64,000 nucleotides of DNA, from assembly GCF_009914755.1 (NCBI RefSeq), contig NC_060933.1; one strand, 5' to 3'. The notes beneath the pieces were generated by a model. It was not told where the DNA came from. It was given only the letters and a program-made list of their open reading frames with translations, and did no database searches. Both the position numbers and the translations under genes were made by a program. The stretch is from the human T2T-CHM13v2.0 reference genome, Homo sapiens. Positions 1,587 to 64,000 of the stretch are shown piece after piece. Every line of letters begins with the position of its first letter. Position 1 is the first letter of the stretch.

Positions 1587-1601
1587 GGAATCTTCCGGAA
1601 T
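1587..1601. promoter_or_regulatory. Canonical heat-shock element nGAAnnTTCnnGAAn (first of ~38-40 copies in the window)
   Basis: GGAATCTTCCGGAAT reads gGAAt-cTTCc-gGAAt. It also occurs at ~3270, 3933, 4562, 6993, 7916, 9589, 11152, 11995, 12889, 13643, 13917, 15900, 18275, 19823, 20661, 22374, 23217, 24055, 26447, 27980, 29932, 31280, 33307, 34969, 35777, 37525, 49128, 52050, 53777, 56791, 58354, 59192, 60895, 61738 and 62576. The motif match is direct; function is inferred. Confidence 0.6.
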
Positions 1602-4600
1602 GGAATGGAATTGAATGCAATGGAATGAAATGCAATGGATTCAACTCGATTGCAATGGAATGGAATAGAATGGAATGGAATGGAATGGAATGGAATTAAT
1701 CTGAATAGAATGGAATGGAATGGAATGGAACGGAATGGAACCGAATGGAATGGAATGGAATGGAATGGATTGGAATGGTATGGAATGGAATGGAATGGTA
1801 CGGAATAGAATGGAATGGAACGAACTGTAATGGAATGGGATTGAATGGAATGGAATGGAATGGAATGGAATCAACGCGAGAGCAGGGGAATGTAATGGAA
1901 CGGAATGCAATGGAATGGAATCATCCGGAATGGAATGGAATGGAAAGGAATTGAATGGAATGGAATCAACCCGAGTGAAATGGAATGGAATGGAATGGAA
2001 TGGAATGGAATGGAACAACCCGAATGGAATGGAATGTAATGGAGAGTAAAGGAGTTGAATAGAATGAATCCGAATGTAATGGAATGGAATGCAACGGAAT
2101 GGAATGGAATGGAATGGAATGGAATGCAATGGAATGGAATCAACCCGAGTACAATGGAATGGAATGGAATGGAATGGAATCGTTCCGAGTGGAATAGGAG
2201 GGAATGTATTCGAGTGGAATGGAAAGGAATGGAATCAACCAGATTGGAATGGAAGGGAATGGAATGGAATGGAAAATAATAGAATGGAATCAACCCGAGT
2301 GGAGTGGAATGGAAAGGACTGGAATGGAATGGAATGGAATGGAATCAACTCGATTGTAATGGAATGGAATGGAATGGAATGGAATGGAATGGAATGGAAT
2401 TAACCCGAATACAATGGAATGGAATGGAATGGAACAGAATGGAGTGGAATGGAATGGAATCAACCCGAGTGCAGGGGATTAGAATGGTATGGAATGCAAC
2501 GGAATGGAATCATCCGGAATGGAATGGAATGGAATGGAATGCAAAGCAATGGAATCAACTCGATTGCAATGGAATGGAATGGAATGGAAAGGAATACATT
2601 GGAATCAACCCGAGTGGAATGGAATGGAAAGGAGTGGAATGGAGTGGAATGGAATGGAATGGAATGGAATGGAATCAACTCGATTGGAATGGAATGGAAT
2701 GGAATGGAATGGAATGGAATTAACCCGAAGAGAATGGAGTGGAATGGAATGTAACGGAACGGAATGGAATGGAATGGAATGGAATGGAATGGAATGGAAT
2801 GGAATCAACCCGACTGCAGGGGAATGGAATGGAATGGAATGCAATGGAATGGATTCAACTTGAATGGAATGGAAAGAATGGAATCAACACGAGTGGAATG
2901 GCATGGATTGGAATGGAATGGAATAGAATCAACCCGATTACAGGGGAATGGAATGGAATGGAATGCAATGGAATGGAATCATCCGTAATGGAATGGAAAG
3001 GAATATAATGGAATGGAATGGAATGGAATGGAATGGAATGGAATCAACTCGATTGCAATCAAATGGAATGGAATGGAATTAAACCGAATAGAATGGAATG
3101 GATTGGAATGGAATGGAACGGAACGGAATGGAATGGATTGGAATGGAATGGAATGGAATGGAATGTAACGGAAAGGGATGGAATGGAATGGAATGGAATG
3201 GAATGGAATGGAATGGAATGGAATCAACGCGAGTGCAGGGGAATGGAATGGAATGGAATGCAATGGAATGGAATCTTCCGGAATGGAATGGAATGGAATG
3301 GAATGGAATGGAATAAACCCGAGTGCAATGGAATGGAATGGAATGGAATGGAATGGAATGGAACAACCCGAATGGAATGGAATGGAATGGAGAGTAAGGG
3401 AGTTGAATAGAATGAATCCGAATGTAATGGAATGGAATGGAAGGGAATGGAATGGAATGGAATGGAATGGAATGGAATGGAATGGAATGCAATGGAATGG
3501 AATCAATCCGAGTGCAATCGAATGGAATCGAATGGAATGGAATGCAATGGAATGGATTCAACTTGAATGGAATGGAAAGAATGGAATCAACACGAGTGGA
3601 ATGGCATGGATTGGAATAGAATGGAATGGAATCAAGCCGAGTACAGGGGAATGGAATGGAATGGAATGCAATGGAATGGAATCATCCGTAATGGAATGGA
3701 AAGGAATGGAATGGAATGGAATGGAATGGAATGGAATGGAATCAACTCGATTGCAATCGAATGGAATGGAATGGAATTAACCCGAATAGAATGGAATGGA
3801 ATGGAATGTAACGGAACGGAATGGAATGGAATGGAATGGAACGGAATGGAACGGAATGGAATGGAATGGAATGGAATGGAATGGAATCAACGCGAGTGCA
3901 GGGGAATGGAATGGAATGGAATGCAATGGAATGGAATCTTCCGGAATGGAATGGAATGGAATGAAATGCAATGGATTCAACTCGATTGCAATGGAATGGA
4001 ATAGAATGGAATGGAATGGAATGGAATGGAATGGAATGGAATGGAATGGAATTAACCCGAATGGAATGGAATGGAATGGAATGGAACGGAATGGAACGGA
4101 ATGGAATGGAATGGAATGCAATGGAATGGTATGGAATGGAATGGAATGGTATGGAATAGAATGGAATGGAACGAATTGTAATGGAACGGAATGGAATGGA
4201 ATGGAATGGAATGGAATGGAATCAACGCGAGTTTAGGGGAATGTAATGGAACGGAATGCAATGGAATGGAATCATCCGTAATGGAATGGAATGGAATGGA
4301 ATGGAATGGAATCAACCCGAGAGCAATGGAATGGAGTGGAATGGAATGGAATGGAATGGAACAACCCGAATGGAATGGAATGTAATGGAGAGTAAGGGGG
4401 TTGAATAGAATCAATCCGAATGTAATGGAATGGAATGCAACGGAATGGAATGGAATGTAGTGGAATGGAATGCAATGGAATGGAATCAACCCGAGTACAA
4501 TGAAATGGAATGGAATGGAATGGAATGGAATGGAATGGAATGGAATGGAATGCAATGGAATGGAATCTTCCGGAATAGAATGGAATGGAATGGAATGGAA

Positions 4601-7600
4601 TGGAATGCAATGCAATGCATTCAACTCGATTGCCATGGAATGGAATAGAATGGAATGGAATGGAATGGAATGGAATGGAACGGAACGGAAAGGAAAGGAA
4701 GGGAATGGAATGGAATAGAATGGAATGGAATGGAATGGAATGGAATGGAATTAAACCGAATAGAATGGAATGGAATGGAATGGAAAGGACTGGAATGGAA
4801 TGGAATGGAATGGAATGGAATGGAATCAACTCGATTGTAATGGAATGGAATGGAATGGAATGGAATGGAATGGAATGGAATGGAATGTAATTAACCCGAA
4901 TACAATGGAATGGAATGGAATGGAACGGAATGGAGTGGAATGGAATGGAATCAACCCGAGTGCAGGGGAATGGAATGGAATGGAATGCAATGGAATGGAA
5001 TCATCCGGAATGGAATGGAATGGAATGGAATGCAAAGCAATGGAATCAACTCGATTTCAATGGAATGGAATGGAATGGAAAGGAATACATTGGAATCAAC
5101 CCGAGTGGAATGGAATGGAAAGGACTGGAATGGAATGGAATGGAATGGAATGGAATGGAATGGAATGGAATGGAATCAACTCGATTGGAATGGAATGGAA
5201 TGGAATGGAATGGAATTAACCCGAATAGAATGGAATGGAATGGAATGGAACGGAACGGAACAGAATGGAATGGAATGGAATGGAATGGAATGGAATGGAA
5301 TGGAATCAACCCGACTGCAGGGGAATGGAATGGAATGGAATGCAATGGAATGCATTCAACTTGAATGGAATGGAAAGAATGGAATCAACACGAGTGGAAT
5401 GGCATGGATTGGAATGGAATGGAATGGAATCAACCCGAGTAGAGGGGAATGGAATGGAATGGAATTCAATGGAATGGAATCATCCGTAATGGAATGGAAA
5501 GGAATGGAATGGAATGGAATTAACCCGAATAGAATGGAATGGAATGGAATGGAACAGAATGGAACGGAAAGGAATGGAATGGAATGGAATGGAATGGAAT
5601 GGAATGGTATGGAATGGAATGGAATGGTACGGAATAGAATGGAATGGAACGAATTGTAATGGAATGGAACTGAATGGAATGGAATGGAATGGAATGGAAT
5701 CAACGCGAGTGCAGGGGAATGTAATGGAACGGAATGCAATGGAATGGAATCATCCGGAATGGAATGGAATGGAATGGAATGGAATGGAATGGAATCAACC
5801 CGAGTGCAATGGAATGGAGTGGAATGGAATGGAATGGAATGGAACAACCCGAATGGAATGGAATGTAATGGAGAGTAAGGGAGTTGAATAGAATCAATCC
5901 GAATGTAATGGAATGGAATGCAACGGAACGGAATGGAATGGAATGGAATGGAATGCAATGGAATGGAATCAACCCGAGTACAATGGAATGGAATGGAACG
6001 GAATGGAATTGAATGGAATGGAATGGAATGGAATGCAATGGAATGGAATCAACCCGAGTGCAATGGAATGGAGAGGAATGGAATGGAATGCAATGGAAAC
6101 TACCCGAATGGAATGGAATGTAATGGAGTGTAAGGGAATTGAATAGAATCAATCCGAATGTAATGGAATGGAATGGAACGCAACGGAATGGAATGGAATG
6201 GAATGGAATGGAACGGAAAGGAATGGAATGGAATGGAATGGAATGGAATGGAATGGAATGGAATGGAATGGAATCAACGCGAGTGCAGGGGAATGGAATG
6301 GAATGGAATGCAATGGAATGCAATCTTCCGGAATGGAATGGAATTGAATGGAATGGAATGGAATGGAATGGAATAAACCCGAGTGCAATGGAATGGAGTG
6401 GAATGGAATGGAATGGAATGGAACAACCCGAATGGAATGGAATGTAATGGAGACACAGGGAGTTGAATAGAATCAATCCGAATGTAATGGAATGGAATGG
6501 AACGGAATGGAATTGAATGGAATGGAATGGGATGCAATGGAATGGAATCAACCCGAGTGCAATCGAATGGAATCGAATGGAATGGAATGCAATGGAATGG
6601 ATTCAATTTGAATGGAAAGGAAAGAATGGAATCAACACGAGTGGAAGGGCATGGATTGGAATGCAATGGAATGGAATCAACCCGAGTACAGGGGAATGGA
6701 ATGGAATGGAATGCAATGGAATGGAATCATCCGTAATGGAATGGAAAGGAATGGAATGGAATGGAATGGAATGGAATGGAATGGAATGGAATCAACACGA
6801 TTGCAATCGAATGGAATGGAATGGAATTAACCCGAATAGACTGGAATGGAATGGAATGGAACGGAACGTAATGGAATGGAATGGAATGCAATGGAATGGA
6901 ATGGAACGGAACGGAATGGAATGGAATGGAATGGAATGGAATGGAATCAACGCGAGTGCAGGGGAATGGAATGGAATGGAATGCAATGGAATGGAATCTT
7001 CCGGAATGGAATGGAATGGAATGGAATGGAATGGAATGAAATGCAATGGATTCAACTTGATTGCAATGGAATGGAATAGAATTGAATGGAATGGAATGGA
7101 GTGGAATTAATCCGAATAGAATGGAATGGAATGGAATGGAACAGAATGGAACGGAATGGAATGGAATGGAATGGAATGGAATGGAATGGAATGGAATGGT
7201 ATGGAATGAAACGGAATGCTACGGAATAGAATGGAATAGAACGAATTGTAATGGAATGGAATTGAATGGAATGGAATGGAATGGAATGGAATGGAATCAA
7301 CGCGAGTGCAGGGGAATGTAATGGAACGGAATGCAATGGAATGGAATCATCCGGAATGGAATGGAATGGAATGGAATGGAGTGGAATCAACCCGAGTGCA
7401 ATGGAATGGAGTGGAATGGAATGGAATGAATGGAACAACCCGAATGGAATGGAATGAAATGGAGAGTAAGGGAGTTGAATAGAATCAATCCGAATGTAAT
7501 GGAATGGAATGAAACGGAGTGGAATGGAATGGAATGGAATTGAATGCAATGGAATGGAATCAACCTGAGTACAATGGAATGGAATGGAATGGAATGGAAT

Positions 7601-8399
7601 GGAATGGAATGGATTGGAATACCTTCAAACCGAATGGAATGGAAAGGAATGGAATCAACACGAGTGGAATGGAATGGAATGGAATGGAATGGAATGGCAT
7701 GGAATGGAATGGAAAGATAAGGAATAGAATGGAATGGAACGAAATGGAATGGAATGGAATGGAATGGAATGGAATGGAACGGAACGGAATGGAATGGAGA
7801 GGAAGGGAACGGAACGGAATGGAATGGAATGGAATGGAATGGAATGGAATGGAATGGAATGGAATGGAATCACCTCGAGTGCAGGGGAATGGAATGGAAT
7901 GGAATGCAATGGAATGGAATCTTCCGGAATGGAATGGAATGGAATGGAATGGAATGGAATGGAATGGAATGAAATGCAATGGATTCAACTCGATTGCAAT
8001 GGAATGGAATACAATGGAATGGAATGGACTGGAATGGAATTAATCCGAATAGAATGGAATGGAATGGAATGGAATGGAATGGAATGGAATGGAATGGAAT
8101 GGTATGGAAAGGAATGGAATGGTACGGAATAGAATGTAATGGAACGGAATGCAATGGAATGGAATCATCCGGAATGGAATGGAATGGAATGGAATCAACC
8201 AGAGTGCAATGGAAAGGAGTGGAATGGAATGGAATGGAATGGAACAACCCGAATGGAATGGAATGTAATGGAGAGTAAGGGAGTTTAATAGAATCAATCC
8301 GAATGTAATGGAATGGAATGCAACGGAATGGAGTGGAATGGAATGAAATGGAATGCAATGGAATGGAATCAACCGGAGTACAATGGAATGGAATGGAAT

Positions 8400-11300
8400 G
8401 GAATGGAATGGAATGGAATGGAATGGAATGATACGGAATGGAATGGAATGGAACGAAATGGCATGGAATGGAATGGAATGGAATGGAATGGAATGGAATC
8501 GTTCCGAGGGGAATAGGAGGGAATGTACTCGAGTGGAATGGAAAGGAATGGAATCAACCAGAGTGGAATGGAAGGGAATGGAATGGAATGGAAACTAATA
8601 GAATGGAATCAACCCGAGTGGAATGGAATGGAAAGGACTGGAATGGAATGGAATGGAATGGAATGGAATCAACTCGATTGTAATGGAATGGAATGGAATG
8701 GAATGGAATGGAATGGAATAGAATTAACCCGAATACAATGGAATGGAATGGAATGGAACGGAATGGAGTGGAATGGAATGGAATCAACCCGAGTGCAGGG
8801 GAATGGAATGGAATGGAATGCAATGGAATGGAATCATCCGGAATGGAATGGAATGGAATGGAATGCAAAGCAATGGAATCAACTCGATTGCAATGGAATG
8901 GAATGGAATGGAAAGGAATACATTGGAATCAACACGAGTGGAATGGAATGGAAAGGACTGGAATGGAGTGGAATGGAATGGAATGGAATGGAATGGAATC
9001 AACTCGATTGGAATGGAATGGAATGGAATGGAATGGAATGGAATGGAATGGAATTAACCCGAATAGAATGGAATGGAATGGAATGGAACGGAACGGAATG
9101 GAATGGAATGGAATGGAATGGAATGGAATGGAATGGAAACAACCCGACTGCAGGGGAATGGAATGGAATGGAATGCAATGGAATGGATTCAACTTGAATG
9201 GAATGGAAAGAATGGAATCAACACGAGTGGAATGGCATGGATTGGAATGGAATGGAATGGAATCAACCCGAGTACAGGGGAATGGAATGGAATGGAATGC
9301 AATGGAATGGAATCATCCGTAATTGAATGGAAAGGAATGGAATGGAATGGAATGGAATGGAATGGAATCAACTCGATTGCAATCGAACGGAATGGAATGG
9401 AATTAACCCGAATAGAATGGAATGGAATGGAATGGAACGGAACGGAACGGAATGGAATGGATTGGAATGGAACGGAATGGAATGGAATGGAACGGAAAGG
9501 AATGGAATGGAATGGAATGGAATGGAATGGAATGGAATGGAATCAACGCAAGTGCAGGGGAATGGAATGGAACGGAATGCAATGGAATGGAATCTTCCGG
9601 AATGGAATGGAATGGAATGGAATGGAATGGAATAAAACCGAGTGCAATGGAATGGAGTGGAATGGAATGGAATGGAATGGAATAACCCGAATGGAATAGA
9701 ATGTAATGGAGAGTAAGGGAGTTGAATAGAATCAATCCGAATGTAATGGAATGGAATGGAACGGAATGGAATTGAATGGAATGGAATGGAATGCAATGGA
9801 ATGGAATCAACCCGAGTTCCTTGGAATGGAGAGGAATGGAATGGAATGGAATGGAAACTACCCGAATGGAATGGAATGTAATGGAGTGTAACGGAATTGA
9901 ATAGAATCAATCCGAATGTAATGGAATGGAATGGAACGGAATGGAATGGAATGGAATGGAATGGAATGGAATGGAATGGAATGGAATGGAATGATACGGA
10001 ATGGAATGGAATGGAACGAAATGGCATGGAATGGAATGGAATGGAATGGAATGGAATGGAATCGTTCCGAGGGGAATAGGAGGGAATGTATTCGAGTGGA
10101 ATGGAAAGGAATGGAATCAACCAGAGTGGAATGGAAGGGAATGGAATGGAATGGAAACTAATAGAATGGAATCAACCCGAGTGGAATGGAATGGAAAGGA
10201 CTGGAATGGAATGGAATGGAATGGAATCAACTCGATTGTAATGGAATGGAATGGAATGGAATGGAATGGAATGGAATGGAATAGAATTAACCCGAATACA
10301 ATGGAATGGAATGGAATGGAACGGAATGGAGTGGAATGGAATGGAATCAACCCGAGTGCAGGGGAATGGAATGGAATGGAATGCAATGGAATGGAATCAT
10401 CCGGAATGGAATGGAATGGAATGGAATGCAAAGCAATGGAATCAACTCGATTGCAATGGAATGGAATGGAATGGAAAGGAATAAATTGGTATCAACCCGA
10501 GTGGAATGGAATGGAAAGGACTGAAATGGAGTGGAATGGAATGGAATGGAATGGAATGGAATCAACTCGATTGGAATGGAATGGAATGGAATGGAATGGA
10601 ATGGAATGGAATGGAATTAACCCGAATAGAATGGAATGGAATGGAATGGAACGGAACGGAATGGAATGGAATGGATTGGAATGGAATGGAATGGAATGGA
10701 AACAACCCGACTGCAGGGGAATGGAATGGAATGGAATGCAATGGAATGGATTCAACTTGAATGGAATGGAAAGAATGGAATCAACACGAGTGGAATGGCA
10801 TGGATTGGAATGGAATGGAATGGAATCAACCCGAGTACAGGGGAATGGAATGGAATGGAATGCAATGGAATGGAATCATCCGTAATGGAATGGAAAGGAA
10901 TGGAATGGAATGGAATGGAATGGAATGGAATCAACTCGATTGCAATCGAACGGAATGGAATGGAATTAACCCGAATAGAATGGAATGGAATGGAATGGAA
11001 CGGAACGGAACGGAATGGAATGGATTGGAATGGAACGGAATGGAATGGAATGGAACGGAAAGGAATGGAATGGAATGGAATGGAATGGAATGGAATGGAA
11101 TGGAATCAACGCCAGTGCAGGGGAATGGAATGGAACGGAATGCAATGGAATGGAATCTTCCGGAATGGAATGGAATGGAATGGAATGGAATGGAATAAAC
11201 CCGAGTGCAATGGAATGGAGTGGAATGGAATGGAATGGAATGGAACAACCCGAATGGAATGGAATGTAATGGAGAGTAAGGGAGTTGAATAGAATCAATC

Positions 11301-11515
11301 CGAATGTAATGGAATGGAATGGAACGGAATGGAATTGAATGGAATGGAATGGAATGCAATGGAATGGAATCAACCCGAGTTCCTTGGAATGGAGAGGAAT
11401 GGAATGGAATGGAATGGAAACTACCCGAATGGAATGGAATGTAATGGAGTGTAACGGAATTGAATAGAATCAATCCGAATGTAATGGAATGGAATGGAAC
11501 GGAATGGAATGGAAT
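8400..11515 (+). repeat. Direct tandem duplication, two copies of a 1563 bp unit
   Basis: Constant offset of 1563 between landmarks (ATGATACGG 8428/9991; ORFs 8554/10117, 8784/10347, 9189/10752, 9403/10966). Shared rare variants: GTTCCGAGGGG, GAGTTCCTTGG, GTGTAACGGAATTG. Confidence 0.92.
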
Positions 11516-12489
11516 GGAATGGAATGGAATGGAATGCAATGGAATGGAATCAACCCGAGTGCAATCGAATGGAATCGAATGAAATGGAATGCAATGGAAT
11601 GGATTCAACTTCAATGGAATGGAAAGAATTGAATCAACACGAGTGGAATGGCATGGATTGGAATGGAATGGAATGGAATCAACCCGAGTACAGGGGAATG
11701 GAATGGAATGGAATGCAATGGAATGGAATCATCCGTAATGGAATGGAAGGGAATGGAATGGAATGGAATGGAATGGAATGGAATGGAATGGAATCAACTC
11801 GATTGCAATCGAATGGAATGGAATGGAATTAACCCGAATAGAATGGAATGGAATGGAATGGAACGGAACGGAATGGAATGGAATGGAATGGAATGGAAAG
11901 GAACGGAAAGGAAGGGAATGGAATGGAATAGAATGGAATGGAATGGAATAAACGCGAGTGCAGGGGAATGGCATGGAATGGAATGCAATGGAATGGAATC
12001 TTCCGGAATGGAATGGAATGGAATGGAATGGAATGGAATGGAATGGAATGGAATCAACCCGAGTGCAATGGAATGGAGTGGAATGGAATGGAATGGAATG
12101 GAACAACCCGAATGGAATGGAATGTAATGGAGAGTAAGGGAGTTGAATAGAATCAATCCGAATGTAATGGAATGGAATGGAACGGAATGGAATTGAATGG
12201 AATGGAATGGAATGCAATGGAATGGAATCAACCCGAGTGCAATGGAATGGAGAGGAATGGAATGGAATGGAATGGAAACAACCCGAATGGAATGGAATGT
12301 AATGGAGTGTAAGGGAATTGAATAGAATCAATCCGAATGTAATGGAAAGGAATGGAACGGAATGGAATGGAATGGAATGGAATCAACCCGAGTGCAATCA
12401 AATGGAATGGAATGGAATGGAATGCAATGGAACTGAATCAACCCGAGTACAATGGAATGGAATGGAATGGAATGGAATGGAATGGAATG

Positions 12490-13810
12490 GAATGGAATGA
12501 TACGGAATAGAATGGAATGGAACGAAATGGAATGGAATGGAATGGAATGGAATGGAATGGAATGGAATGGAATCGTTCCGAGTGGAATAGGAGGGAATGT
12601 ATTCGAGTGGAATGGAAAGGAATGGAATCAACCAGAGTGGAATGGAAGGGAATGGAATGGAATGGAAACTAATAGAATGGAATCAACCCGAGAGGAAAGG
12701 AATGGAAAAGAGTGGAATGGAATGGAATGGAATGGAATCAACTCGATTGTAATGGAATGGAATGGAATGGAATGGAATTAACCCGAATGGAATGGAATGG
12801 AATGGAATGGAATGGAAAGAAAAGGAAGGGAATGGAATGGAATAGAATGGAATGGAATGGAAACAACGCGAGTGCAGGGGAATGGAATGGAATCTTCCGG
12901 AATGGAATGGAATGGAATGGAATGGAATGGAATGGAATGGAATCAACCCGAGTGCAATGGAATGGAGTGGAATGGATTGGAATGGAATGGAACAACCCGA
13001 ATGGAATGGAATGTAATGGAGAGTAAGGGAGTTGAATAGAATGAATCCGAATGTAATGGAATGGAATGGAACGGAATGGAATTGAATGGAATGGAATGGA
13101 ATGGAATGGAATGGAATCAACCCGAGTTCAATGGAATGGAATGGAATGGAATGATACGGAATAGAATGGAATGGAACGAAATGGAATGGAATGGAATGGA
13201 ATGGAAGGGAATTGAATGGAATGGAATGATACGGAATAGAATGGAATGGAACGAAATGGAATGGAATGGAATGGAATGGAATGGAATGGAATGGAATGGA
13301 ATCGTTCCGAGTGGAATAGGAGGGAATGTATTCGAGTGGAATGGAAAGGAATGGAATCAACCAGAGTGGAATTGAAGGGAATGGAATGGAATGGAAACTA
13401 ATAGAATGGAATCAACCCGAGAGGAATGGAATGGAAAAGACTGGAATGGAATGGAATGGAATGGAATCAACTCGATTGTAATGGAATGGAATGGAATGGA
13501 ATGGAATTAACCCGAATAGAATGGAATGGAATGGAATGGAATGGAATGGAACGAAAAGGAAGGGAATGGAATGGAATAGAATGGAATGGAATGGAATCAA
13601 CGCGAGTGCAGGGGAATGGAATGGAATGGAATGCAATGGAATGGAATCTTCCGGAATGGAATGGAATGCAATGGAATGGAATGGAATGGAATGGAATCAA
13701 CCCGAGTGCAATGGAATGGAGTGGAATGGAATGGAATGGAATGGAACAACCCGAATGGAATGGAATGTAATGGAGAGTAAGGGAGTTGAATAGAATGAAT
13801 CCGAATGTAA
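12490..13810 (+). repeat. Local tandem duplication, ~730 bp unit, about two copies
   Basis: The GATACGG...CGTTCCGAGT...CAACCAGAG...CAACCCGAGAGG series repeats at an offset of ~729 (minus-strand ORF starts 12631/13360). The CAACCCGAGAGG variant occurs at ~12684 and ~13413. Confidence 0.75.
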
Positions 13811-16440: not shown

Positions 16441-16553
16441 ATGGAATGGAATGGAATGCAATGGAATGGAATCATCCGTAATGGAATGGAAAGGAATGGA
16501 ATGGAATGGAATGGAATGGAATGGAATGGAATGGAATCAACTCGATTGCAATC

Positions 16554-41030: not shown

Positions 41031-41099
41031 ATAGAATGGAATGGAATGGAATGGAATGCAATGGAATGGAATCATCCGGAATGGAATAGAATGGAATGG

Positions 41100-50879: not shown

Positions 50880-53860
50880 AATGGAATGGAATGGAATCAA
50901 CTCGATTGCAATCGAATGGAATGGAATGGAATTAACCCAAATAGAATGGAATGGAATGGAATGGAACGGAACGGAACGGAATGGAATGGAATGGAATGGA
51001 ATGGAATGGAATGGAATGGAACGGAAAGTAATGGAATGGAATGGAATGGAATGGAATGGAATGGAATGGAATCAACGCGAGTGCAGGGGAATGGAATGGA
51101 ATCGAATGGAATGGAATGGAATGGAATGGAATGGAATCAACCCGAGTGCAGGGGAATGTAATGGAACGGAATGCAATGGAATGGAATCATCCGGAATGGA
51201 ATGGAATGGAATGGAATGGAATCAACCCGAGTGCAATGGAATGGAGTGGAATGGAATGGAATGAAATGGAACAACCCGAATGGACTGGAATGTAATGGAA
51301 AGTAAGGGAGTTGAAAAGAATCAATCCGAAAGTTATGGAATGCAATGGAACGGAATGGAATGGAATGGAATGGAATGGAATGGAATGGAATGGAATGGAA
51401 TCAACCCGAGTGCAATGGAATGGAGAGGAATGGAATGGAATGGAATGGAAACTACCCTAATGGAATGGAATGTGATGGAGTGTAAGGGAATTGAATAGAA
51501 TCAATCCGAATGTAATGGAATGGAATGGAACGGAATGGAATGGAATGGAATGGAATGGAATGGAATGGAATGGAATGCAATGGAATGGAATAAACCCGAG
51601 TCAATGGAATGGAATCGAATGGAATGGAATGCAATGGAATGGATTCAACTTGAATGGAATGGAAAGAATGGAATCAACACGAGTGGAAGGGCATGGAATG
51701 GAATGGAATGGAATGGAAGCAACCCGAGTACAGGGGAATGGAAAGGAATGGAATGCAATGGAATGGAATCATTCGTAATGTAATGGAACAGAATGGAATG
51801 GAATGGAATGGAATGGAATGGAATGGAATGGAATGGAATGGAATGGAATCAACTCGATTGCATTCGAATGGAATGGAATGGAATTAACCCGAATAGAATG
51901 GAATGGAATGGAATGGAACGGAATGGAACGAAACGGAATGGAATGGAATGGAATGGAACGGAACAGAATGGAATGGAATGGAATGGAATGGAACTGAAAA
52001 GAATAAATGCGAGTGCAGGGGAATGGAATGGAATGGAATGAAATGGAATGGAATCTTCCGGAATGGAATGGAATGGAATGGAATGGAATGCCATGGATTC
52101 AACTCGATTGCAATGGAATGGAATAGAATGGAATGGAATGGAATGGAATGGAATTAACCAGAATAGAATGGAATGGAATGGAATGGAACGGAACGGAACG
52201 GAACGGAATGGAACGGAATGGAATGGAATGGAATGGAATGGAATCAACTCGATTGCATTCTAATGGAATGGAATGGAATTAACCAGAATAGAATGGAATG
52301 GAATGGAATGGAACGGAACGGAACGGAACGGAATGGAACGGAATGGAACGGAACGGAATGGAATGGAATGGAATGGAATGGAATGGAATGGAATTGTATG
52401 GAATGGAATGGAATGGTACGGAATAGAATGGAATGGAAAGAATTGGAATGGAATGGAAACGAATGGAATGGAATGGAATGGAATGGAATGGAATCAACCC
52501 GAGTGTAGGGGAATGTAATGGAACGGAATGCAATGGAATGGAATCATCCGGAATGGAATGGAATGGATTGGAATGGATGGAATGGAATGGAATGGAATGG
52601 AATCAACCCGAGTACAGGGGAATGGAATGGAATGGAATGCAATGGAATGGAGTCATCCGTAATGGAATGGAAAGGAATGGAATGGAATGCAATGGAATGG
52701 AATGGAATGGAATGGAATGGAATCAACTCGATTGCAATCGAATGGAATGGAATGGAATTAACCTGAATAGAATGGAATGGAATGGAATGGAATGGAATGG
52801 AATGGAATGGAATAGAATCAACGCGAGGGCAGGGGAATGGAATGGAATCGAATGGAATGGAATGGAATGGAATGGAATGGAATCAACCCGAGTGCAGGGG
52901 AATGTAATGGAACGGAATGCAATGGAATGGAATCATCCGGAATGGAATGGATTGGAATGGAATGGAATCAACCCGAGTGCAATGGAATGGAGTGGAATGG
53001 AATGGAATGGAATGGAACAACCCGAATGGACTGGAATGTAATGGAGAGTAAGGGAGTTGAAAAGAATCAATCCGAAATTTATGGAATGCAATGGAACGGA
53101 ATGGAATGGAAGGGAATGGAATGGAATGGAATGGAATGGAATCAACCCGAGTGCAATGGAATGGAGAGGAATGGAATGGAATGGAATGGAAACTACCCGA
53201 ATGGAATGGAATGCGATGGAGTGTAAGGGAATTGAATAGAATCAATCCGAATGTAATGGAATGGAACGGAACGGAATGGAATGGAATGGAATGGAATGGA
53301 ATGGAATGGAATGCAATGGAATGGAATAAACCCGACTGCAATGGAATGGAATCAAATGGAATGGAATGCAATGGAATGGATTCAACTTGAATGGAATGGA
53401 AAGAATGGAATCAACACGAGTGGAATGGCATGGAATGGAATGGAATGGAATGGAATCAACCCGAGTACAGGGGAATGGAATGGAATGGAATGCAATGGAA
53501 TGGAATCATTCGTAATGTAATGGAACGGAATGGAATGGAATGGAATGGAATGGAATGGAATGGAATGGAATGGAATCAACTCGATTGCATTCGAATGGAA
53601 TGGAATGGAATTAACCCGAATAGAATGGAATGGAATGGAATGGAACGGAATGGAACGAAACGGAATGGAATGGAATGGAATGAAACGGAACGGAATGGAA
53701 TGGAATGGAATGGAATGGAACTGAAAAGAATAAATGCGAGTGCAGGGGAATGGAATGGAATGCAATGAAATGGAATGGAATCTTCCGGAATGGAATGGAA
53801 TGGAATGGAATGGAATGGAATGGAATGCAATGGATTCAACTCGATTGCAATGGAATGGAA
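50880..53860 (+). repeat. ~1.74 kb-offset duplication within a related 47.6-54.1 kb family of units
   Basis: Paired variants GGACTGGAATGTAAT (~51282/53028), TCATTCGTAATGTAA (~51769/53506), TTGCATTCGAAT and CTGAAAAGAATAAATGCGAG (~51994/53721). The ORF pair 51654/53391 has an offset of 1737. Confidence 0.8.
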
Positions 53861-55059
53861 TAGAATGGAATGGAATCAACGCGAGTGCAGGGGAATGGAA
53901 TGGAATCGAATGGAATGGAATGGAATGGAATGGAATCAACCCGAGTGCAGGGGAATGTAATGGAACGGAATGCAATGGAATGGAATCATCCGGAATGGAA
54001 TGGAATGGAATCAACCCGAGTGCAATGGAATAGAGTGGAATGGAAAGGAATGGAATGGAACAACCCGAATGGAATGGAATGTAATGGAGAGAAAGGGAGT
54101 TGAAAAGAATCAATCCGAATGTAATGGAATGGAATGAAACGGAATGGAATGGAATGGAATGGAATGGAATGGAATGGAATGGAATCAACCCGAGTGCAAT
54201 GGAATGGAGTGGAATGGAATGGAATGGAATGGAACAACCCGAATGGAATGGAATGTAATGGAGAGTAAGGGAGTTGAATAGAATCAATCCGAATGTAATG
54301 GAATGGAATGGAACGGAATGGAATTGAATGGAATGGAATGGAATGCAATGGAATGGAATCAACCCGAGTGCAATGGAATGGAGAGGAATGGAATGGAATG
54401 GAATGGAAACTACCCGAATGGAATGGAATGTAATGGAGTGTAAGGGAATTGAATAGAATCAATCCGAATGTAATGGAATGGAATGGAACGGAATGGAATG
54501 GAATGGAATGGAATGGAATGCAATGGAATGGAATGAACCCGAGTGCAATCGAATGGAATCGAATGGAATGGAATGCAATGGAATGGATTAAACTTGAATG
54601 GAATGGAAAGAATGGAATCAACACGAGTGGAATGGCGTGGATTGGAATGGAATGGAATGGAATCAACCTGAGTACAGGGGAATGGAATGGAATGGAATGC
54701 AATGGAATGGAATCATCTGAAATGGAATGGAAAGGAATGGAATGGAACGGAATGGAATGGAATGGAATGGAATCAACTCGATAGCAATCGAATGGAATGG
54801 AATGGAATTAACCCGAATAGAATGGAATGGAATGGAATGGAACGGAACGGAATGGAATTGAATGGAATGGAATGGAATGGAACGGAACGGAATGGAATGG
54901 AATGGAATGGAATGGAATGGGATCAACGCGAGTGCAGGGGAATGGAATGGAATGGAATGCAATGGAATGGAATCTTCTGGAATGGAATGGAATTTAATGG
55001 AATGGAATGAAATGCAATGGATTCAACTCGATTGCAATGGAATGGAATAGAATGGAATG

Positions 55060-58000
55060 GAATGGAATGGAGTGGAATTAACCCGAATAGAATGGAATGG
55101 AATGGAACGGAACGGAACGGAATGGAATGGAATGGAATGGAATGGAATGGAACGGAAAGGAAGGGAATGGAATGGAATAGAATGGAATGGAATGGAATCA
55201 ACGCGAGTGCAGGGGAATGGAATGGAATGGAATGGAATGGAATGGAATGGAATGGAATGGAATGGAATGGAATGGAATCAACCCGAGTGCAATGGAATGG
55301 AGTGGAATGGAATGGAATGGAATGGAACAACCCGAAAGGAATGGAATGTAATGGAGAGTAAGGGAGTTGAATAGAATCAATCCGAATGTAATGGAATGGA
55401 ACGGAATGGAATGGAATGGAATGGAATGGAATGGAATGGAATGCAATGGAATGGAATCAACCCGAGTACAATGGAACGGAATGGAATGGAATGTAATGGA
55501 ATGGAATGGAATGGAATGGAATGGAATGGAAAGGAATGGAATCAACCCGAGTGCAATGGAATGGAGAGGAATGGAATGGAATGGAATGGAAACTACCCGA
55601 ATGGAATGGAATGTAATGGAGCGTAAGGGAATTGAATAGAATCAATCCGAATGGAATGGAATGGAATGGAACGGAATGTAATGGAATGGAATGAAATGGA
55701 ATCAACCCGAGTGCAGGCGAATGGAATGAAATGGAATGCAATGTAATGGAATCATCCGGAATGGAATGGAATGGAATGCAATGGAATGGAATGGAATGGA
55801 ATCAACCCGAGTGCAATGGAATGGAGTGAAATGGAATGGAATGGAATGGAAACAACCAGAATGGATTGGAATATATTGGAGTGTAAGGGAATTGAATAGA
55901 ATCAATCTGAATGTAATGAAATGGAATGGAACGGAATGGAATGGAATGGAATGCAATGCAATGGAACGGTATCAACCCGAGTGCAATCGAATGGAATCGA
56001 ATGGAATGGAATGCAATGGAATGGATTCAACTTGAATGGAAAGGAAAGAATGGAATCAACACGAGTGGAATGGCATGGATTGGAATGGAATGGAATGGAA
56101 TCAACCCGAGTACAGGGGAATGGAATGGAATGGAATGCAATAGAATGGAATCATCAGTAATGGAATGGAAAGGAATGGAAAGGACTGGAATGGAATGGAA
56201 TGTAATGGAATGGAATGGAATCAACTCGATTGCAATCGAATGGTATGGAATGGAATGGAATCAACTCGATTGCAATCGAATGGAATGGAATGGAATTAAC
56301 CCGAATAGAATGGAATGGAATGGTATGGAACGGAACGGAAAGGAATGGAATGCAATGGAACGGAAAGGAATGGAATGGAATGGAATGGAATGGAATGGAA
56401 TGGAATGGAATCAACGCGCGTGCAGGGGAATGGAATGGAATCGAATGGAATGGAAAGGAATGGAATGGAATCAACCCGAGTGCAGGGGAATGTAATGGAA
56501 CGGAATGCAATGGAATGGAATCATCCGGAATGGAATGGAATGGAATCAACCCGAGTGCAATGGAATGGAGTGGAATGGAATGGAATGGAATGGAACAACC
56601 CGAATGGAATGGAATGTAATGGAGAGTAAGGGAGTTGAAAAGAATCAATCCGAATGTAATGGAATGGAATGGAACGGAATGGAATGGAATGGAATGGAAT
56701 GCAATGGAATGGAATCAACCCGAGTACAATGGAATGGAATGGAATGGAATGGAATGGAATGGAATGGAATGGAATGGAATGCAATGGAATGGAATCTTCC
56801 GGAATGGAATGGAATGGAATGGAATGGAATGCAATGGATTCAACTCGATAGCAATGGAATGGAATAGAATGGAATGGAATGGAATGGAATGGAATGGAAT
56901 TAAACCGAATAGAATGGAATGGAATGGAATGGAACGGAACAGAACGGAAAGGAACGGAACGGAGTGGAATGGAATGGAATGGAATTGTATGGAATGGAAT
57001 GGAATGGTACGGAATAGAATGGAATGGAAAGAATTGGAATGGAATGGAATCGAATGGAATGGAATGGAATGGAATGGAATGAACCCGAGTGCAAGGGAAT
57101 GTAATGGAACGGAATGCAATGGAATGGAATCATCCGGAATGGAATGGAACGGAATGGAATGGAATGGAATGGAATGGAATGGAATGGAATCAACCCGAGC
57201 GCAATGGAATGGAGTGGAATGGAATGGAATGGAATGGAACAACCCGAATGGAATGGAATGGAATGGAGAGTAAGCGAGTTGAATAGAATAAATCCGAATG
57301 TAATGGAATGGAACGGAATGGAATGGAATGGAATGGAATGGAATGGAATGGAATGCAATGGAATGGAATCAACCCGAGTACAAAGGAACGGAATGGAATG
57401 AAATGTAATGGAATGGAATGGAATGGAATGGAATGGAATGGAATCAACCCGAGTGCAATGGAATGGAGAGGAATGGAATGGAATGGAATGCAATGGAATG
57501 GAATCATCCGGAATGGAATGGAATGCAATGGAATGCAAACCAATGGAATCAACTCGATTACAATGGAATGGAATGGAATGGAAAGGAATACATTGGAATC
57601 AACCCGAGTGGAATGGAATGGAAAGGACTGGAATGGAGTGGAATGGAATGGAATGGAATGGAATGGAATCAACTCGATTGCAATGCAATGGAATGGAATG
57701 GAATGGAATGGAATGGAATGGAATCAACCCGAGTTCAATGGAATGGAGAGGAATGGAATGGAATGGTATGGAAACTACCCGAATGGAATGGAATGTAATG
57801 GAGTCTAAGGGAATTGAATAGAATCAATCCGAATGTAATGGAATGGAATGGAACGGACTGGAATGGAATGGAATGGAATGGAATGGAATGGAATGGAATG
57901 CAGTGGAATGGAATCAACCCGACTGCAATCGAATGGAATCGAATGGAATGGAATGCAATGGAATGGATTCAACTTGAATGGAATGGAAAGAATGGAATCA

Positions 58001-61000
58001 ACACGAGTGGAATGGCATGGATTGGAATGTAATGGAATGGAATCAACCCGAGTACAGCGGAATGGAATGGAATGGAATGCAATGGAATGGAATCATCCAT
58101 AATGGAATGGAAAGGAATGGAATGGAATGGAATGGAATGGAATGGAATGGAATCAACTCGATTGCAATCGAATGGAATGGAGTGCAATTAACCCGAATAG
58201 AATGGAATGGAATGGAATGGAACGGAACGGAACGGAATGGAATGGAATGGAATGGAATGGAACGGAAAGGAAGGGAATGGAATGGAATAGAATGGAATGG
58301 AATGGAATCAACGCGAGTGCAGGGGAATGGAATGGAATGGAATGCAATGGAATGGAATCTTCCGGAATGGAATGGAATGGAATGGAATGGAATTGAATGG
58401 AATCAACCCGATTGCAATGGAATGGAGTGGAATGGAATGGAATGGAATGGAACAACCCGAATGGAATGGAATGTAATGGAGAGTAAGGGAGTTGAATAGA
58501 ATCAATCCGAATGTAATGGAATGGAATGGAACGGAATGGAATTGAATGGAATGGAATGGAATGCAATGGAATGGAATCAACCCGAGTGCAATGGAATGGA
58601 GAGGAATGGAATGGAATGCAATGGAAACTACGCGAATGGAATGTAATGGAGTGTAAGGGAGTTGAATAGAATCAATCCGAATGTAATGGAATGGAATGGA
58701 ACGGAATGGAATGGAATGGAATGGAATGGAATGGAATGGAATGCAATGGAATGGAATCAACCTGAGTGCAATCAAATGGAATCGAATGGAATGGAATGCA
58801 ATGGAATGGATTCAACTTGAATGGAATGGAAAGAATGGAATCAACACGAGTGGAATGGCATGGATTGGAATGGAATGGAATGGAATCAACCCGAGTACAT
58901 GGGAATGGAATGGAATGGAATGCAATGGAATGGAATAAACCGTAATGGAATGGAAAGGAATGGAATGGAATGGAATGGAATGGAATGGAATGGAATGGAA
59001 TCAACTCGATTGCAATCGAATGGAATGGAATGGAATTAACCCGAATAGAATGGAATGGAATGGAATGGAACGGAACGGAATGGAATGGAATGGAATGGAA
59101 TGGAATGCAACGGAACGGAATGGAATGGAATGGAATGGAATGGAATCCACGCGAGTGCAGGGGAATGTAATGGAATGGAATGCAATGGAATGGAATCTTC
59201 CGGAATGGAATGGAATGGAATGGAATGAAAAGTAATGGATTCAACTCGATTGCAATGGAATGGAATAGAATGGAATGGAATAGAATGGAATTAATCCGAA
59301 TAGAATGGAATGGAATGCAATGGAACGGAATGGAACGGAATGGAATGGAATGGAATAGAATGGAATTGTATGGAATGGAATGGAATGGTACGGAATAGAA
59401 TGGAATGGAACGAATTGTAATGGAATGGAATTGAATGGAATGGTATGGAATGGAATGGAATGGAATCAACGCGAGTGCAGGGGAATGTAATGGAAAGGAA
59501 TGCAATGGAATGGAATCATCCGGAATGGATTGGAATGGAATGGAATGGAATGGAATCAACCCGAGTGCAATGGAATGGAATGGAATGGAATGGAACAACC
59601 AGAATGGAATGGAATGTAATGGAGAGTAAGGGAGTTGAATAGAATCAATCCGAAAGTAATGGAATGGAATGCAACGGAATGGAATGGAATGGAATGGAAT
59701 GGAATGCAATGGAATTGAATCAACACGAGTACAATGGAATGGAATGGAATGGAATGGAATGGAATGGAATGATACGGAATAGAATGGAATGGAACGAAAT
59801 GGAATCGAATGGAATGGAATGGAATGGAATGGAATGGAATGGAATCAACCCGAGTGCAGGGGAATGGAATGGAATGGAATGCAATGGAATGGAATCATCC
59901 GGAATGGAATGGAATGGAATGGAATGCAAAGCAATGGAATCAACTCGATTGCAATGGAATGGAATGGAATGGAAAGGAATACATTGGAATCAACCCGAGT
60001 GGAATGGAATGGAAAGGACTGGAATGGAGTGGAATGGAATGGAATGGAATGGAATGGAATCAACTCGATTGGAATGGAATGGAATGGAATGGAATGGAAT
60101 TAACCCGAATAGAATGGAATGGAATGGAATGGAACGGAACGGAATGCAATGGAATGGAATGGAATGGAATGGAATGGAATGGAATGGAATCAACCCGACT
60201 GCAGGGGAATGGAATGGAATGGAAGGCAATGGAATGGAATCATCCGGAATGGAATGGAATGGAATGCAATGGAATGGAATGGAATGGAATCAACCCGAGT
60301 GCAATGGAATGGAGTGAAATGGAATGGAATGGAATGGACACAACCAGAATGGATTGGAATATAATGGAGTGTAAGGGAATTGAATAGAATCAATCTGAAT
60401 GTAATGAAATGGAATGGAACGGAATGGAATGGAATGGAATGCAATGGAATGGAATCAACCCGAGTGCAATCGAATGGAATCGAATGGAATGGAATGCAAT
60501 GGAATGGATTCAAATTGAATGGAATGGAAAGAATGGAATCAACACGAGTGGAATGGCATGGATTGGAATGGAATGGAATGGAATCAACCCGAGTATAGGG
60601 GAATGGAATGGAATGGAATGCAATGGAATGGAATCATCCGTAATGGAATGGAAAGGAATGGAATGGAATGGAAAGGAATGGAATGGAATCAACTCGATTG
60701 CAATCGAAAGGAATGGAATGGAATTAACCCGAATAGAATGGAATGGAATGGAATGGAACGGAACGGAATGGAATGGAATGGAATGGAATGGAATGGAGTG
60801 GAAGGGAAAGGAAGGGAAAGGAATGGAATAGAATGGAATGGAATGGAATCAACGCGAGTGCATGGGAATGGAATGGAATGGAATGCAATGGAATGGAATC
60901 TTCCGGAATGGAATGGAATGGAATGGAATGGAATGGAATGGAATGGAATGGAATCAACCAGAGTGCAATGGAATGGAGTGGAATGGAATGGAATGGAATG

Positions 61001-64000
61001 GAACAACCCGAATGGAATGGAATGTAATGCAGAGTAAGGGAGTTGAATAGAATCAATCTGAATGTAATGGAATGGAATGCAACGGAATGGAATTGAATGG
61101 AATGGAATGGAATGCAATGGAATGGAATCAACCCGAGTGCAATGGAATGGAGAGGAATGGAATGGAATGGAATGGAAAGTACCCGAATGGAATGGAATGT
61201 AATGGAGTGTAAGGGAATTGAATAGAATCAATCCGAATGTTTGGAATGAAATGGGAACGGAATGGAATGGAATGGAATGGAATGCAATGGAATGCAATGG
61301 AATGGAATCAACCCGAGTGCAATCGAATGGAATCGAATGGAATGGAATGCAATGGAATGGATTCAAATTGAATGGAATGGAAAGAATGGAATCAACACGA
61401 GTGGAATGGCATGGATTGGAATGGAATGGAATGGAATCAACCCGAGTACAGGGGAATGGAATGGAATGGAATGCAATGGAATGGAATCATCCGTAATGGA
61501 ATGGAAAGGAATGGAATGGAATGGAATGGAATGGAATCAACTCGATTGCAATCGAATGGAATGGAATGCAATTAACCCGAATAGACTGGAATGGAATGGA
61601 ATGGAACGGAACGGAATGGAATGGAATGGAATGGAATGGAATGGAACGGAAAGGAAGGGAATGGAATGGAATAGAATGGAATGGAATGGAATCAACGCGA
61701 GTGCAGGGGAATGGAATGGAATGGAATGCAATGGAATGGAATCTTCCGGAATGGAATGGAATGGAATGGAATGGAATGGAATTGAATGGAATCAACCCGA
61801 GTGCAATGGAATGGAGTGGAATGGAATGGAATGGAACAACCCGAATGGAATGGAATGTAATGGAGAGTAAGGGAGTTGAATAGAATCAATTCGAATGTAA
61901 TGGAATGGAATGGAACGGAATGGAATTGAATGGAATGGAATGGAATGAAATGGAATGGAATCAACCCGAGTGCAATGGAATGGAGAGGAATGGAATGGAA
62001 TGCAATGGAAACTACCCGAATGGAATGTAATGGAGTGTAAGGGAATTGAATAGAATCAATCCGAATGTAATGGAATGGAATGGAACGGAATGGAACGGAA
62101 TGGAATGGAATGGAATGGAATGCAATAGAATGGAATCAACCCGAGTGCAATCAAATGGAATCGAATGGAATGGAATGCAATGGAATGGATTCAACTTGAA
62201 TGGAATGGAAAGAATGGAATCAACAGGAGTGGAATGGCATGGATTGGAATGGAATGGAATGGAATCAACCCGAGTACAGGGGAATGGAATGGAATGGAAT
62301 GCAATGGAATGGAATCAACCGTAATGGAATTGAAAGGAATGGAATGGAATGGAATGGAATGGAATGGAATGGAATGGAATGGAATCAACTCGATTGCAAT
62401 CGAATGGAATGGAATGGAATTAACCCGAATAGAATGGAATGGAATGGAATGGAACGGAACGGAATGGAATGGAATGGAATGGAATGGAATGGAACGTAAC
62501 GGAATGGAATGGAATGGAATGGAATGGAATCAACGCGAGTGCAGGGGAATGGAATGGAATGGAATGCAATGGAATGGAATCTTCCGGAATGGAATGAAAT
62601 GGAATGGAATGGAATGAAATGCAATGGATTCAACTCGATTGCAATGGAATGGAATAGAATGGAATGGAATGGAATGGAATGGAATTAATCCGAATAGAAT
62701 GGAATGGAATGCAATGGAACGGAATGGAATGGAATGGAATGGAATGGAATTGTATGGAATGGAATGGAATGGTACGGAATAGAATGGAATGGAACGAATT
62801 GTAATGCAATGGAATGGAATGGAATGGAATGGAATCAACGCGAGTCCAGGGGAATGTAATGTAAAGGAATGCAATGGAATGGAATCATCCGGAATGGAAT
62901 GGAATGGAATGGAATGGAATCAACCCGAGTGCAATGGAATGGAGTGGAATGGAATGGAATGGAATGGAACAACCAGAATGGAATGGAATGTAATGGAGAG
63001 TAAGGGAGTTGAATAGAATCAATCCGAATGTAATGGAATGGAATGCAACGGAATGGAATGGAATGGAATGGAATGGAATGCAATGGAATTGAATCAACCC
63101 GAGTACAATGGAATGGAATGGAATGGAATGGAATGGAATGGAATGGAATGGAATGGAATGATACGGAATAGAATGGAATGGAACGAAATGGAATGGAAAG
63201 GAATGGAATGGAATGGAATGGAATGGAATGGAATGGAATCAACCCGAGTGCAGGGGAATGGAATGGAATGGAATGCAATGGAATGGAATCATCCGGAATG
63301 GAATGGAATGGAATGGAATGCAAAGCAATGGAATCAACTCGATTGCAATGGAATGGAATGGAATGGAAAGGAATTCATTGGAATCAACCCGAGTGGAATG
63401 GAACGGAAAGGACTGGAATGGAGTGGAATGGAATGGAATGGAATGGAATGGAATGGAATCAACTCGATTGGAATGGAATGGAATGGAATGGAATTAACCC
63501 GAATAGAATGGAATGGAATGGAATGGAACGGAACGGAACGGAATGGAATGGAATGGAATGGAATGGAATGGAATGGAATGGAATCAACCCGACTGCAGGG
63601 GAATGGAATGGAATGGAAGGCAATGGAATGGATTCAACTTGAATGGAATGGAAAGAATGGAATCAACACGAGTGGAATGGCATGGATTGGAATGGAATGG
63701 AATGGAATCAACCCGAGTACAGGGGAATGGAATGGAATGGAATGCAATGGAATGGAATCATCCGTAATGGAATGGAAAGGAATGGAATGGAATGGAATGG
63801 AATGGAATGGAATGGAATTGAATGGAATGGAATCAACTCGATTGCAATCGAATGGAATGGAATGGAATTAACCCGAATAGAATGGAATGGAATGGAATGG
63901 AACGGAACGGAACGGAACGGAACGGAGTGGAATGGAATGGAATGGAATTGTATGGAATGGAATGGCATGGTACGAAATAGAATGGAATGGAAAGAATTGG
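55060..64000 (+). repeat. Copy 2 of the long duplication, truncated by the window end
   Basis: Matches 16554-25479. The offset steps 38506 > 38511 > 38516 > 38531 > 38521 through whole-pentamer indels. The last bases (AAAGAATTGG) correspond to 25470-25479. Confidence 0.97.

What the first reader, a model, noticed from the sequence alone, without database searches (positions are those of the whole stretch)
1587..62590. One spacer variant (CTTCC vs CATCC) builds ~40 perfect heat-shock elements into the array
Seen: plain GGAAT repeats are head-to-tail nGAAn units, but the CTTCC spacer inserts an inverted unit in exact register, giving gGAAt-cTTCc-gGAAt. This occurs about once per 1.3 kb in the first 37.5 kb. 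The paralogous spacer CATCC differs by one base and is not an HSE. Variants at ~32434 (GTTCC) and ~54969 (CTTCT) keep the TTC core, while ~6320 loses a GAA. Established: HSF1 trimers bind nGAAnnTTCnnGAAn, and HSF1 binds satellite III (notably 9q12) to form nuclear stress bodies and drive SatIII transcription. Inference: these sites may be the actual nucleation points for HSF1, making the array a distributed stress-responsive platform coded by a one-base switch.
Basis: partly seen in the sequence, partly recalled or inferred. Interest (0 to 1): 0.75.

Follow-up and report, generated by a model that had tools for sequence, protein, structure and literature searches.

The report
Chromosome 9 satellite's heat-shock docking sites
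A one-letter variant of a repeat unit, present in about 12,700 copies in the giant chromosome 9 satellite, spells a textbook binding site for the heat-shock regulator HSF1 and likely marks where HSF1, already known to gather on this satellite under stress, binds best.

Summary
In detail: 39 perfect three-unit heat-shock elements (HSEs) lie in the window, 36 of them the exact 15-mer GGAATCTTCCGGAAT. It is not special to this window. The genome holds 12,700 exact copies, 17% of its 76,189 perfect three-unit HSEs, and rare sub-variants place them in the 9q12 HSat3 array. The T variant sits on one haplotype of a roughly 60-bp module, so it likely arose once and spread by array amplification. Its HSE bases show no extra conservation. 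Yq12, the other primary HSF1 site, holds about 14,200 perfect HSEs in three unrelated words; 28 kb sampled from six other satellite arrays held none. The 'one-base switch' is overstated: CATCC matches 8 of 9 core bases, keeps all three guanines, is equally chromosome-9-restricted and is more abundant, and HSF1 binds satellite III lacking canonical HSEs in vitro. HSEs at 9q12, and HSF1 ChIP enrichment at motif-dense HSat3, are already in print. The exact word, its count and its origin were not found in my searches. Likely the top of a graded set of sites in a known HSF1 target, now directly testable. Binding at these sites was not tested here.

The parts
1..64000 (+). HSat3 (GGAAT)n satellite, part of the 9q12 array; G-rich strand on +
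   Evidence: One period-5 array over 7-63992, 73% matches; exact GGAAT covers 56%; place chr9:72.04-72.11 Mb lies inside the span shown as hsat3_9_3(B5) in PMC11622622
1587..62590 (+). 36 exact perfect HSE 15-mers GGAATCTTCCGGAAT; starts 1587, 3270, 3933, 4562, 6993, 7916, 9589, 11152, 11995, 12889, 13643, 13917, 15900, 18275, 19823, 20661, 22374, 23217, 24055, 26447, 27980, 29932, 31280, 33307, 34969, 35777, 37525, 49128, 52050, 53777, 56791, 58354, 59192, 60895, 61738, 62576
3225..3299 (+). Example of the module that carries the slot: CAACGCGAG landmark, pentamers, then CTTCC 50 bases after the landmark start
32434..32448 (+). Perfect HSE, GTTCC variant of the T module
54969..54983 (+). Perfect HSE, CTTCT variant (C-to-T at the CpG)
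45033..45047 (+). Perfect HSE reached by a second route, from the CTACC module (19 CTACC copies in the window are 8-of-9 sites)
6320..6334 (+). T module that has lost the first GAA (GCAAT)
201..62590 (+). 59 paralogous CATCC 15-mers (first at 201), imperfect 8-of-9 HSEs, and 30 CATCC-GTAAT slots (first at 1437), 7-of-9
   Evidence: end coordinate approximate (class spans the window)
37540..49127 (+). Block with no CTTCC 15-mer and 15 CATCC 15-mers: a natural A-only control
16554..25479 (+). First copy of a recent duplication, offset about 38.5 kb; holds 6 HSEs
   Evidence: 1 mismatch in 2,991 aligned bases over 19,000-22,000; 0 in 3,401 over 22,000-25,400
55060..64000 (+). Second copy of the duplication, cut by the window end; holds 6 HSEs

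Best explanation
The CTTCC word is a perfect three-unit heat-shock element present in 12,700 exact copies in the genome, which likely arose once in a 9q12 repeat module, likely spread by ordinary satellite amplification, and is predicted to be the strongest class of HSF1 docking site in that array. Steps: (shown) the inverted unit sits in register, with a purine before every GAA; (shown) it rides on one module haplotype; (shown) sampled copies are confined to chr9:49.5-76.4 Mb at about 4 per 10 kb, in patches; (published) activated HSF1 trimers bind 9q12 directly through their DNA-binding domain, and HSF1 ChIP reads are enriched where HSat3 motif density is high; (inferred) trimers load first on CTTCC sites, more weakly on the 20,563 CATCC and on CTACC 8-of-9 sites, and weakest on plain head-to-tail pentamers, so the A/T base is a step in an affinity ladder, not a switch; (inferred) thousands of such sites about 1-2.5 kb apart concentrate HSF1 enough to seed the nuclear stress body and satellite transcription; (inferred) Yq12 does the same with three unrelated perfect words.
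For: 39 perfect sites in the window; 12,700 exact copies against 3 for the reversed control, of 76,189 perfect HSEs genome-wide. chr9 restriction: 45 of 45, 63 of 68 with the other 5 scattered at control level, 4 of 5, first 100 listed of 180. 80 exact and 94 perfect sites in 20 x 10 kb across the array, 16 of 20 tiles positive. Haplotype linkage 106 of 112 versus 9 of 392. Yq12: 9 perfect sites in 12 kb, about 14,200 in all. None in 28 kb from 8 stretches of other HSat2/3 arrays, chr15, 17, 1, 16, 20, 10. 9q12 and Yq12 are the primary HSF1 targets (PMC7889540). ChIP follows motif density (Franklin preprint). Preferred flanking bases (PMC8379338). pHuR98 needed more HSF1 than a consensus HSE in EMSA, >12.5 ng versus >3 ng, which fits a graded affinity.
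Against: No binding data for this word were seen or generated. HSF1 binds pHuR98, described as non-canonical, and its DNA-binding domain was crystallised on head-to-tail satellite III repeats (cited; that paper not held). CATCC is more abundant and equally chr9-restricted, so chr9 specificity cannot separate the two. In Franklin's table the HSF1 matrix enrichment of the chr15 HSat3A5 array (18.6) and of several A1/A2 arrays (up to 47) exceeds that of chr9 B5 (mostly 6-12) (columns counted by hand). HT1080 cells form primary bodies on Y and not on 9q12, although two of three Y words have a pyrimidine before the last GAA, which calls unfavourable. chr1 HSat2 also holds some perfect HSEs (44 listed over 126.9-133.3 Mb for one pattern). 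My off-target sample is small, and only three large HSat3 arrays exist to compare.
Confidence: 0.6

Rival explanations
1. HSF1 coats the array through the sheer mass of imperfect and head-to-tail sites plus condensate formation; the CTTCC word is not preferentially occupied in cells.
For: 258 one-mismatch versus 94 perfect sites in 200 kb; 4,196 step-type GAA-N7-GAA-N7-GAA matches in the window; pHuR98 binding; head-to-tail SatIII co-crystal (cited); heat-induced RNA maps across the whole chr9 array (short reads).
Against: The large chr15 array has abundant pentamers but is not named a primary site and showed 0 perfect sites in 12 kb; ChIP is enriched at motif-dense sub-regions, not uniformly.
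Confidence: 0.2
2. A strict one-base switch kept by selection: CTTCC binds, CATCC does not, and the sites are maintained because the stress body needs them.
For: 96 of 112 T-haplotype modules are still perfect; core divergence is lower than at the same positions of A modules, 13 of 896 versus 52 of 1,976, p = 0.057.
Against: The core is no better conserved than control GAA triplets in the same modules, 13 of 896 versus 14 of 1,680, p = 0.16 (copies are not independent). A same-position mismatch is tolerated in the UBC promoter. Yq12 works with none of this word. Penin 2021 concludes that which array is used is accessory.
Confidence: 0.1
3. Chromatin state or a cofactor, not site quality, decides where HSF1 lands; most CTTCC copies are buried in heterochromatin and only a few accessible patches matter.
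For: HT1080 cells skip 9q12 in vivo though it binds HSF1 in vitro; repeats stay in regular nucleosome arrays under stress; bulk HSF1 ChIP enrichment on HSat3 after heat shock is modest, 3.1 +/- 1.7.
Against: Granules are rebuilt on protease-treated chromosomes with recombinant HSF1 and light up chr9 only, which points to DNA sequence.
Confidence: 0.1

Closest known systems
HSF1 binding to 9q12 satellite III and nuclear stress bodies (Jolly 2002, PMC2173303; parts 1-2 of 4 of the text read)
   Same: Same locus and factor; direct DNA binding needing the DNA-binding and trimerisation domains.
   Different: Jolly argued that the nGAAn arrangement in pHuR98 is non-canonical and invoked secondary structure; here the array is shown to hold thousands of canonical sites.
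HSF1 motifs in HSat3 sub-regions with matching ChIP enrichment (Franklin et al., bioRxiv 10.1101/2024.10.22.616524; passages, first part of Results, and supplementary tables of PMC11526998 read; figures not seen)
   Same: Motif-dense HSat3 is enriched in heat-shock HSF1 ChIP; HSat3 as a transcription-factor platform.
   Different: Matrix-level screen; in the passages read it does not name the word, its paralogue, its count or its origin.
Putative HSEs at 9q12 (Vourc'h 2022 review, PMC9032817; passages read)
   Same: States that 9q12 sequence holds putative HSEs (unpublished observation).
   Different: States that the number of sites is unknown; gives no sequence in the passages read.
Perfect HSEs in Yq12 DYZ1 (Penin 2021, PMC7889540; passages and Discussion read)
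   Same: Perfect HSEs interspersed in an HSat3 array that is a primary HSF1 target.
   Different: Unrelated words; they report 4 per 3,564-bp unit, I count 3 per unit with the strict pattern.
Canonical promoter HSE (Feng 2021, PMC8379338; passages and section 11 read)
   Same: Three inverted nGAAn units, pyrimidine-purine step after TTC, purine before GAA.
   Different: Only three units, one trimer's worth, in heterochromatin and with no annotated gene nearby.

Membership tests
Canonical heat-shock element | At least three contiguous inverted nGAAn units | tested here: met
   39 sites; none with four units
Canonical heat-shock element | Pyrimidine-purine step between TTC and GAA; purine before each GAA | tested here: met
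   38 of 39 have CG or TG at the step (45033 has CC); rule; sites
Canonical heat-shock element | Bound by HSF1 trimers at this sequence | not testable with these tools
   No reads or binding assay available; only region-level published evidence
Canonical heat-shock element | Drives heat-induced transcription nearby | not testable with these tools
   Array-wide induction is published; start sites relative to the word are unknown
HSat3, 9q12 array (HSat3B5) | Pentamer-dominated array at the 9q12 coordinates | tested here: met
   the subfamily label comes from the paper's coordinates, I did not run a k-mer classifier
Binary sequence switch (CATCC = non-site) | The off state lacks the HSE core | tested here: not met
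   CATCC keeps 8 of 9 core bases and all three guanines; same-position mismatch tolerated in UBC
Element under purifying selection | Core bases better conserved than neighbouring equivalent bases | tested here: inconclusive
   13 of 896 versus 14 of 1,680 (p 0.16) and versus 52 of 1,976 (p 0.057), non-independent copies

The most novel reading that the evidence does not exclude
One base change in one repeat module, copied about 12,700 times, is what made 9q12 the primary HSF1 sink, and Yq12 reached the same state independently with three other words; together the two arrays hold 35% of the genome's perfect three-unit HSEs and titrate HSF1 in proportion to array size and variant content.
Probability: 0.3. 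Interest if true: 0.75.

Novelty: new member of a known kind. Interest (0 to 1): 0.45.

Why it matters
Why HSF1 picks 9q12 and Yq12 among many GGAAT arrays, and which sequence it reads there, has been open since 2002; a 2022 review says the number of sites is unknown. A named 15-mer, a one-base paralogue as internal control, CTTCC-free blocks and a genome-wide count turn this into a k-mer test on existing ChIP reads. If true, array length and variant content, which likely differ between people and sexes, would set how much HSF1 is drawn off under stress.

Tried and rejected
Selection on the HSE core: the first two module sets were contaminated by non-homologous slots, chiefly the CTACC module, and gave misleading figures; redone with a stricter filter (504 modules from window 1-55,000 plus 20 tiles; the duplicated tail was dropped; the filter also demands at most one mismatch at four slot positions, which lowers apparent divergence in all classes). 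No clear signal. RNA hairpin as an alternative role: three modules fold no better than shuffles, z +1.3, +1.8, +0.3; only a 6-base palindrome in 3200-3320. A 38.5-kb tandem period: rejected, only 16.5-25.5 kb is duplicated; upstream stretches align at 88-92%. CpG methylation as a T-versus-A discriminator: rejected, 37 CTTCC and 66 CATCC sites share the same CCGG, 103 of 107 in the window; 5mC would mimic the T of the common TG/CA step, so I expect little block (inference; search gave 2 papers, listing only). Of 20 stretches sampled outside chr9, 4 missed satellite 2/3 (L029, L036, L039, L040), 2 were AT-rich Y repeat (L021, L025), and 3 were picked on prior hits (L033, L034 with 1 perfect site each; L035 with 0) and were left out of the 28-kb count. 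One search was too broad to test chr15. A text search for the words themselves listed 40 of 783 papers, none on satellites by title. Seven look-ups of papers on HSF1 structure, HSE mutagenesis and T2T satellites were not held. No ape or other human assemblies were available, and no earlier scan notes were seen.
Full report
Observation. The window is one GGAAT satellite array at chr9:72.04-72.11 Mb. It holds 39 matches to GAAnnTTCnnGAA, all on the G-rich strand; 36 are GGAATCTTCCGGAAT, and there are 59 copies of the CATCC paralogue. 28 sites fall in the first 37.5 kb, one per 1.34 kb. The variants at 32434, 54969 and 6320 are as described. Low-order Markov models give 0.8 (order 2) and 12.8 (order 4) sites, order 6 gives 38: the signal is one recurrent word. 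Six sites lie in a near-identical copy of 16.5-25.5 kb at 55-64 kb. An 11.6-kb block (37,540-49,127) has no CTTCC 15-mer and 15 CATCC 15-mers.

Anatomy and origin. The slot lies 50 bases after a CAAC[C/G]CGAG landmark in a module of about 60 bases, so CTTCC, CATCC-GGAAT and CATCC-GTAAT are true paralogues. Among 504 modules from window 1-55,000 and 20 tiles of the array, T occurs in 106 of 112 modules of one upstream haplotype and in 9 of 392 others. A occurs on four haplotypes, and a CATCC 15-mer also sits in a chr21 satellite, so T is likely derived, from one event spread by amplification with a little exchange (inference). A second, rarer route to a perfect HSE runs through the CTACC module (45033; also in L001). 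The HSE core of T modules diverges at 13 of 896 positions, against 14 of 1,680 control GAA positions (p 0.16) and 52 of 1,976 in A modules (p 0.057); copies are not independent, so selection is neither shown nor excluded. Two earlier versions of this test were contaminated and dropped.

Genome scale. The exact word has 12,700 copies (control 3), CATCC 20,563, and all perfect three-unit HSEs number 76,189 (control 43,994). The search lists only 100 places, so I located the word through rare sub-variants: 45 of 45, 63 of 68 and 4 of 5 lie in chr9:49.6-76.4 Mb, none on chr10-Y; the first 100 of 180 of another do too. Twenty 10-kb tiles hold 80 exact and 94 perfect sites, 0-9 exact per tile, 4 tiles empty of the exact word; scaled to 27.6 Mb this gives about 11,000 (7,600-14,500), compatible with nearly all copies being in this array. 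All 94 follow the local G-rich strand. CATCC is equally confined, 36 of 37.

Other arrays. Three Yq12 stretches hold 9 perfect HSEs in 12 kb, three per unit of about 3.55 kb, in three words unrelated to CTTCC. Their genome counts are 4,836, 4,895 and 4,547, with 46, 1 and 30 listed off Y: about 14,200 on Y, assuming contig 24 is Y (by length and content) and that the list runs in contig order. These words plus CTTCC explain 13,410 of the 14,055 forward-strand excess and make up 35% of all perfect HSEs; CTTCC alone is 17%, or 20% without Y. What remains, about 47,000, is near the reversed control of 44,000, a rough sign that no third array of similar weight exists. Eight unselected stretches of other HSat2/3 arrays (28 kb: chr15 x3, 17, 1, 16, 20, 10) hold no perfect site, where chr9 density predicts 13. 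Against a clean picture: chr1 HSat2 holds scattered perfect sites (44 listed over 6.4 Mb for one pattern), two acrocentric stretches picked on hits hold one each, and Franklin's matrix enrichment is higher for chr15 HSat3A5 (18.6), Y HSat3A6 (about 16) and several A1/A2 arrays (up to 47) than for chr9 B5 (mostly 6-12) (columns counted by hand; her method scores imperfect matches).

Is CATCC 'off'? It matches 8 of 9 core bases with all three guanines. Guanine is the most conserved base of nGAAn, and a UBC promoter element with GTC in the middle block, mismatched at the same position, is shifted and supershifted by HSF1 and HSF2 antibodies; the authors call their trimer assignment speculative (PMC4552642, passages). 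Plain pentamers already supply 6 of 9 bases and a step-type spacing (4,196 matches), and 37 of 39 sites extend into a gap-type fourth unit. HSF1 shifts pHuR98 at >12.5 ng against >3 ng for a consensus HSE, and the authors call its arrangement non-canonical (the sequence figure is not held, so I could not check it for either word). A co-crystal of the HSF1 DNA-binding domain on head-to-tail SatIII is cited. A ladder of affinities fits these data better than a switch.

Mechanism. Shown here: consensus sites with preferred flanks (rule), their number, spacing, confinement and haplotype. Published: direct, sequence-borne HSF1 binding to 9q12, ChIP enrichment at motif-dense HSat3 (bulk enrichment 3.1 +/- 1.7 after heat shock against 1.09 without), 9q12 and Yq12 as primary targets, array-wide heat-induced RNA. 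Inferred: CTTCC sites load first and, with weaker neighbours, concentrate HSF1 enough to seed the stress body. I give this 0.6; mass binding without preference 0.2; a selected strict switch 0.1; chromatin or cofactor control 0.1. The preference of HT1080 cells for Y is not explained by site count or site quality.

Novelty. That 9q12 holds HSEs is stated as an unpublished observation, with the number unknown; another review says HSF1 probably reads scattered HSE-like sequences; Franklin links motif density to ChIP signal. Ten searches and passages of two 2026 papers (PMC13634412, PMC13705371) did not show the word, its count, its origin or the 9-versus-Y parity; subscription papers, figures and several key papers were out of reach, so absence is not proven. 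Verdict: a new, precisely named member of a known kind, in a known target; interest 0.45, mainly because it makes an old question directly testable.

Noticed in passing
window 16554-25479 and 55060-64000: Recent duplication of at least 9 kb at an offset of about 38.5 kb, with an exact match of 3,580 bases; differences are mostly pentamer-number changes.
   Followed up: partly
window 37540-49127: Sub-block with a different module mix: no CTTCC 15-mer, no CAACGCGAG landmark between 36,047 and 46,457, many CATCC sites.
   Followed up: partly
window 8682-9973 and 10245-11536: Local tandem copy with period 1,563; shorter recurrences near 850, 1,700 and 3,400 bases also appear.
   Followed up: no
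L022-L024 (contig 24, 38-52 Mb): Yq12 repeat carries three perfect HSE words per unit, about 14,200 in all, mostly on one strand.
   Followed up: yes
L006:7503-7522, L016:7986-8063, L020:6073-6097: 3 of 20 random 10-kb tiles of the chr9 array contain a strand switch of the pentamer, implying many inversions.
   Followed up: no
window, whole: 103 of 107 CCGG sites lie in the CTTCC or CATCC slot, so HpaII/MspI assays of this array read mainly these slots.
   Followed up: partly
L033 (chr14, 5.54 Mb) and L034 (chr21, 5.85 Mb): Acrocentric HSat3 stretches hold a single copy of one Y-type HSE word, hinting that it predates the Y expansion.
   Followed up: no
contig 1, 126.9-133.3 Mb: HSat2 region holds patches of a perfect HSE variant, often 1.77 kb apart; a candidate basis for a secondary stress-body site.
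   Followed up: no
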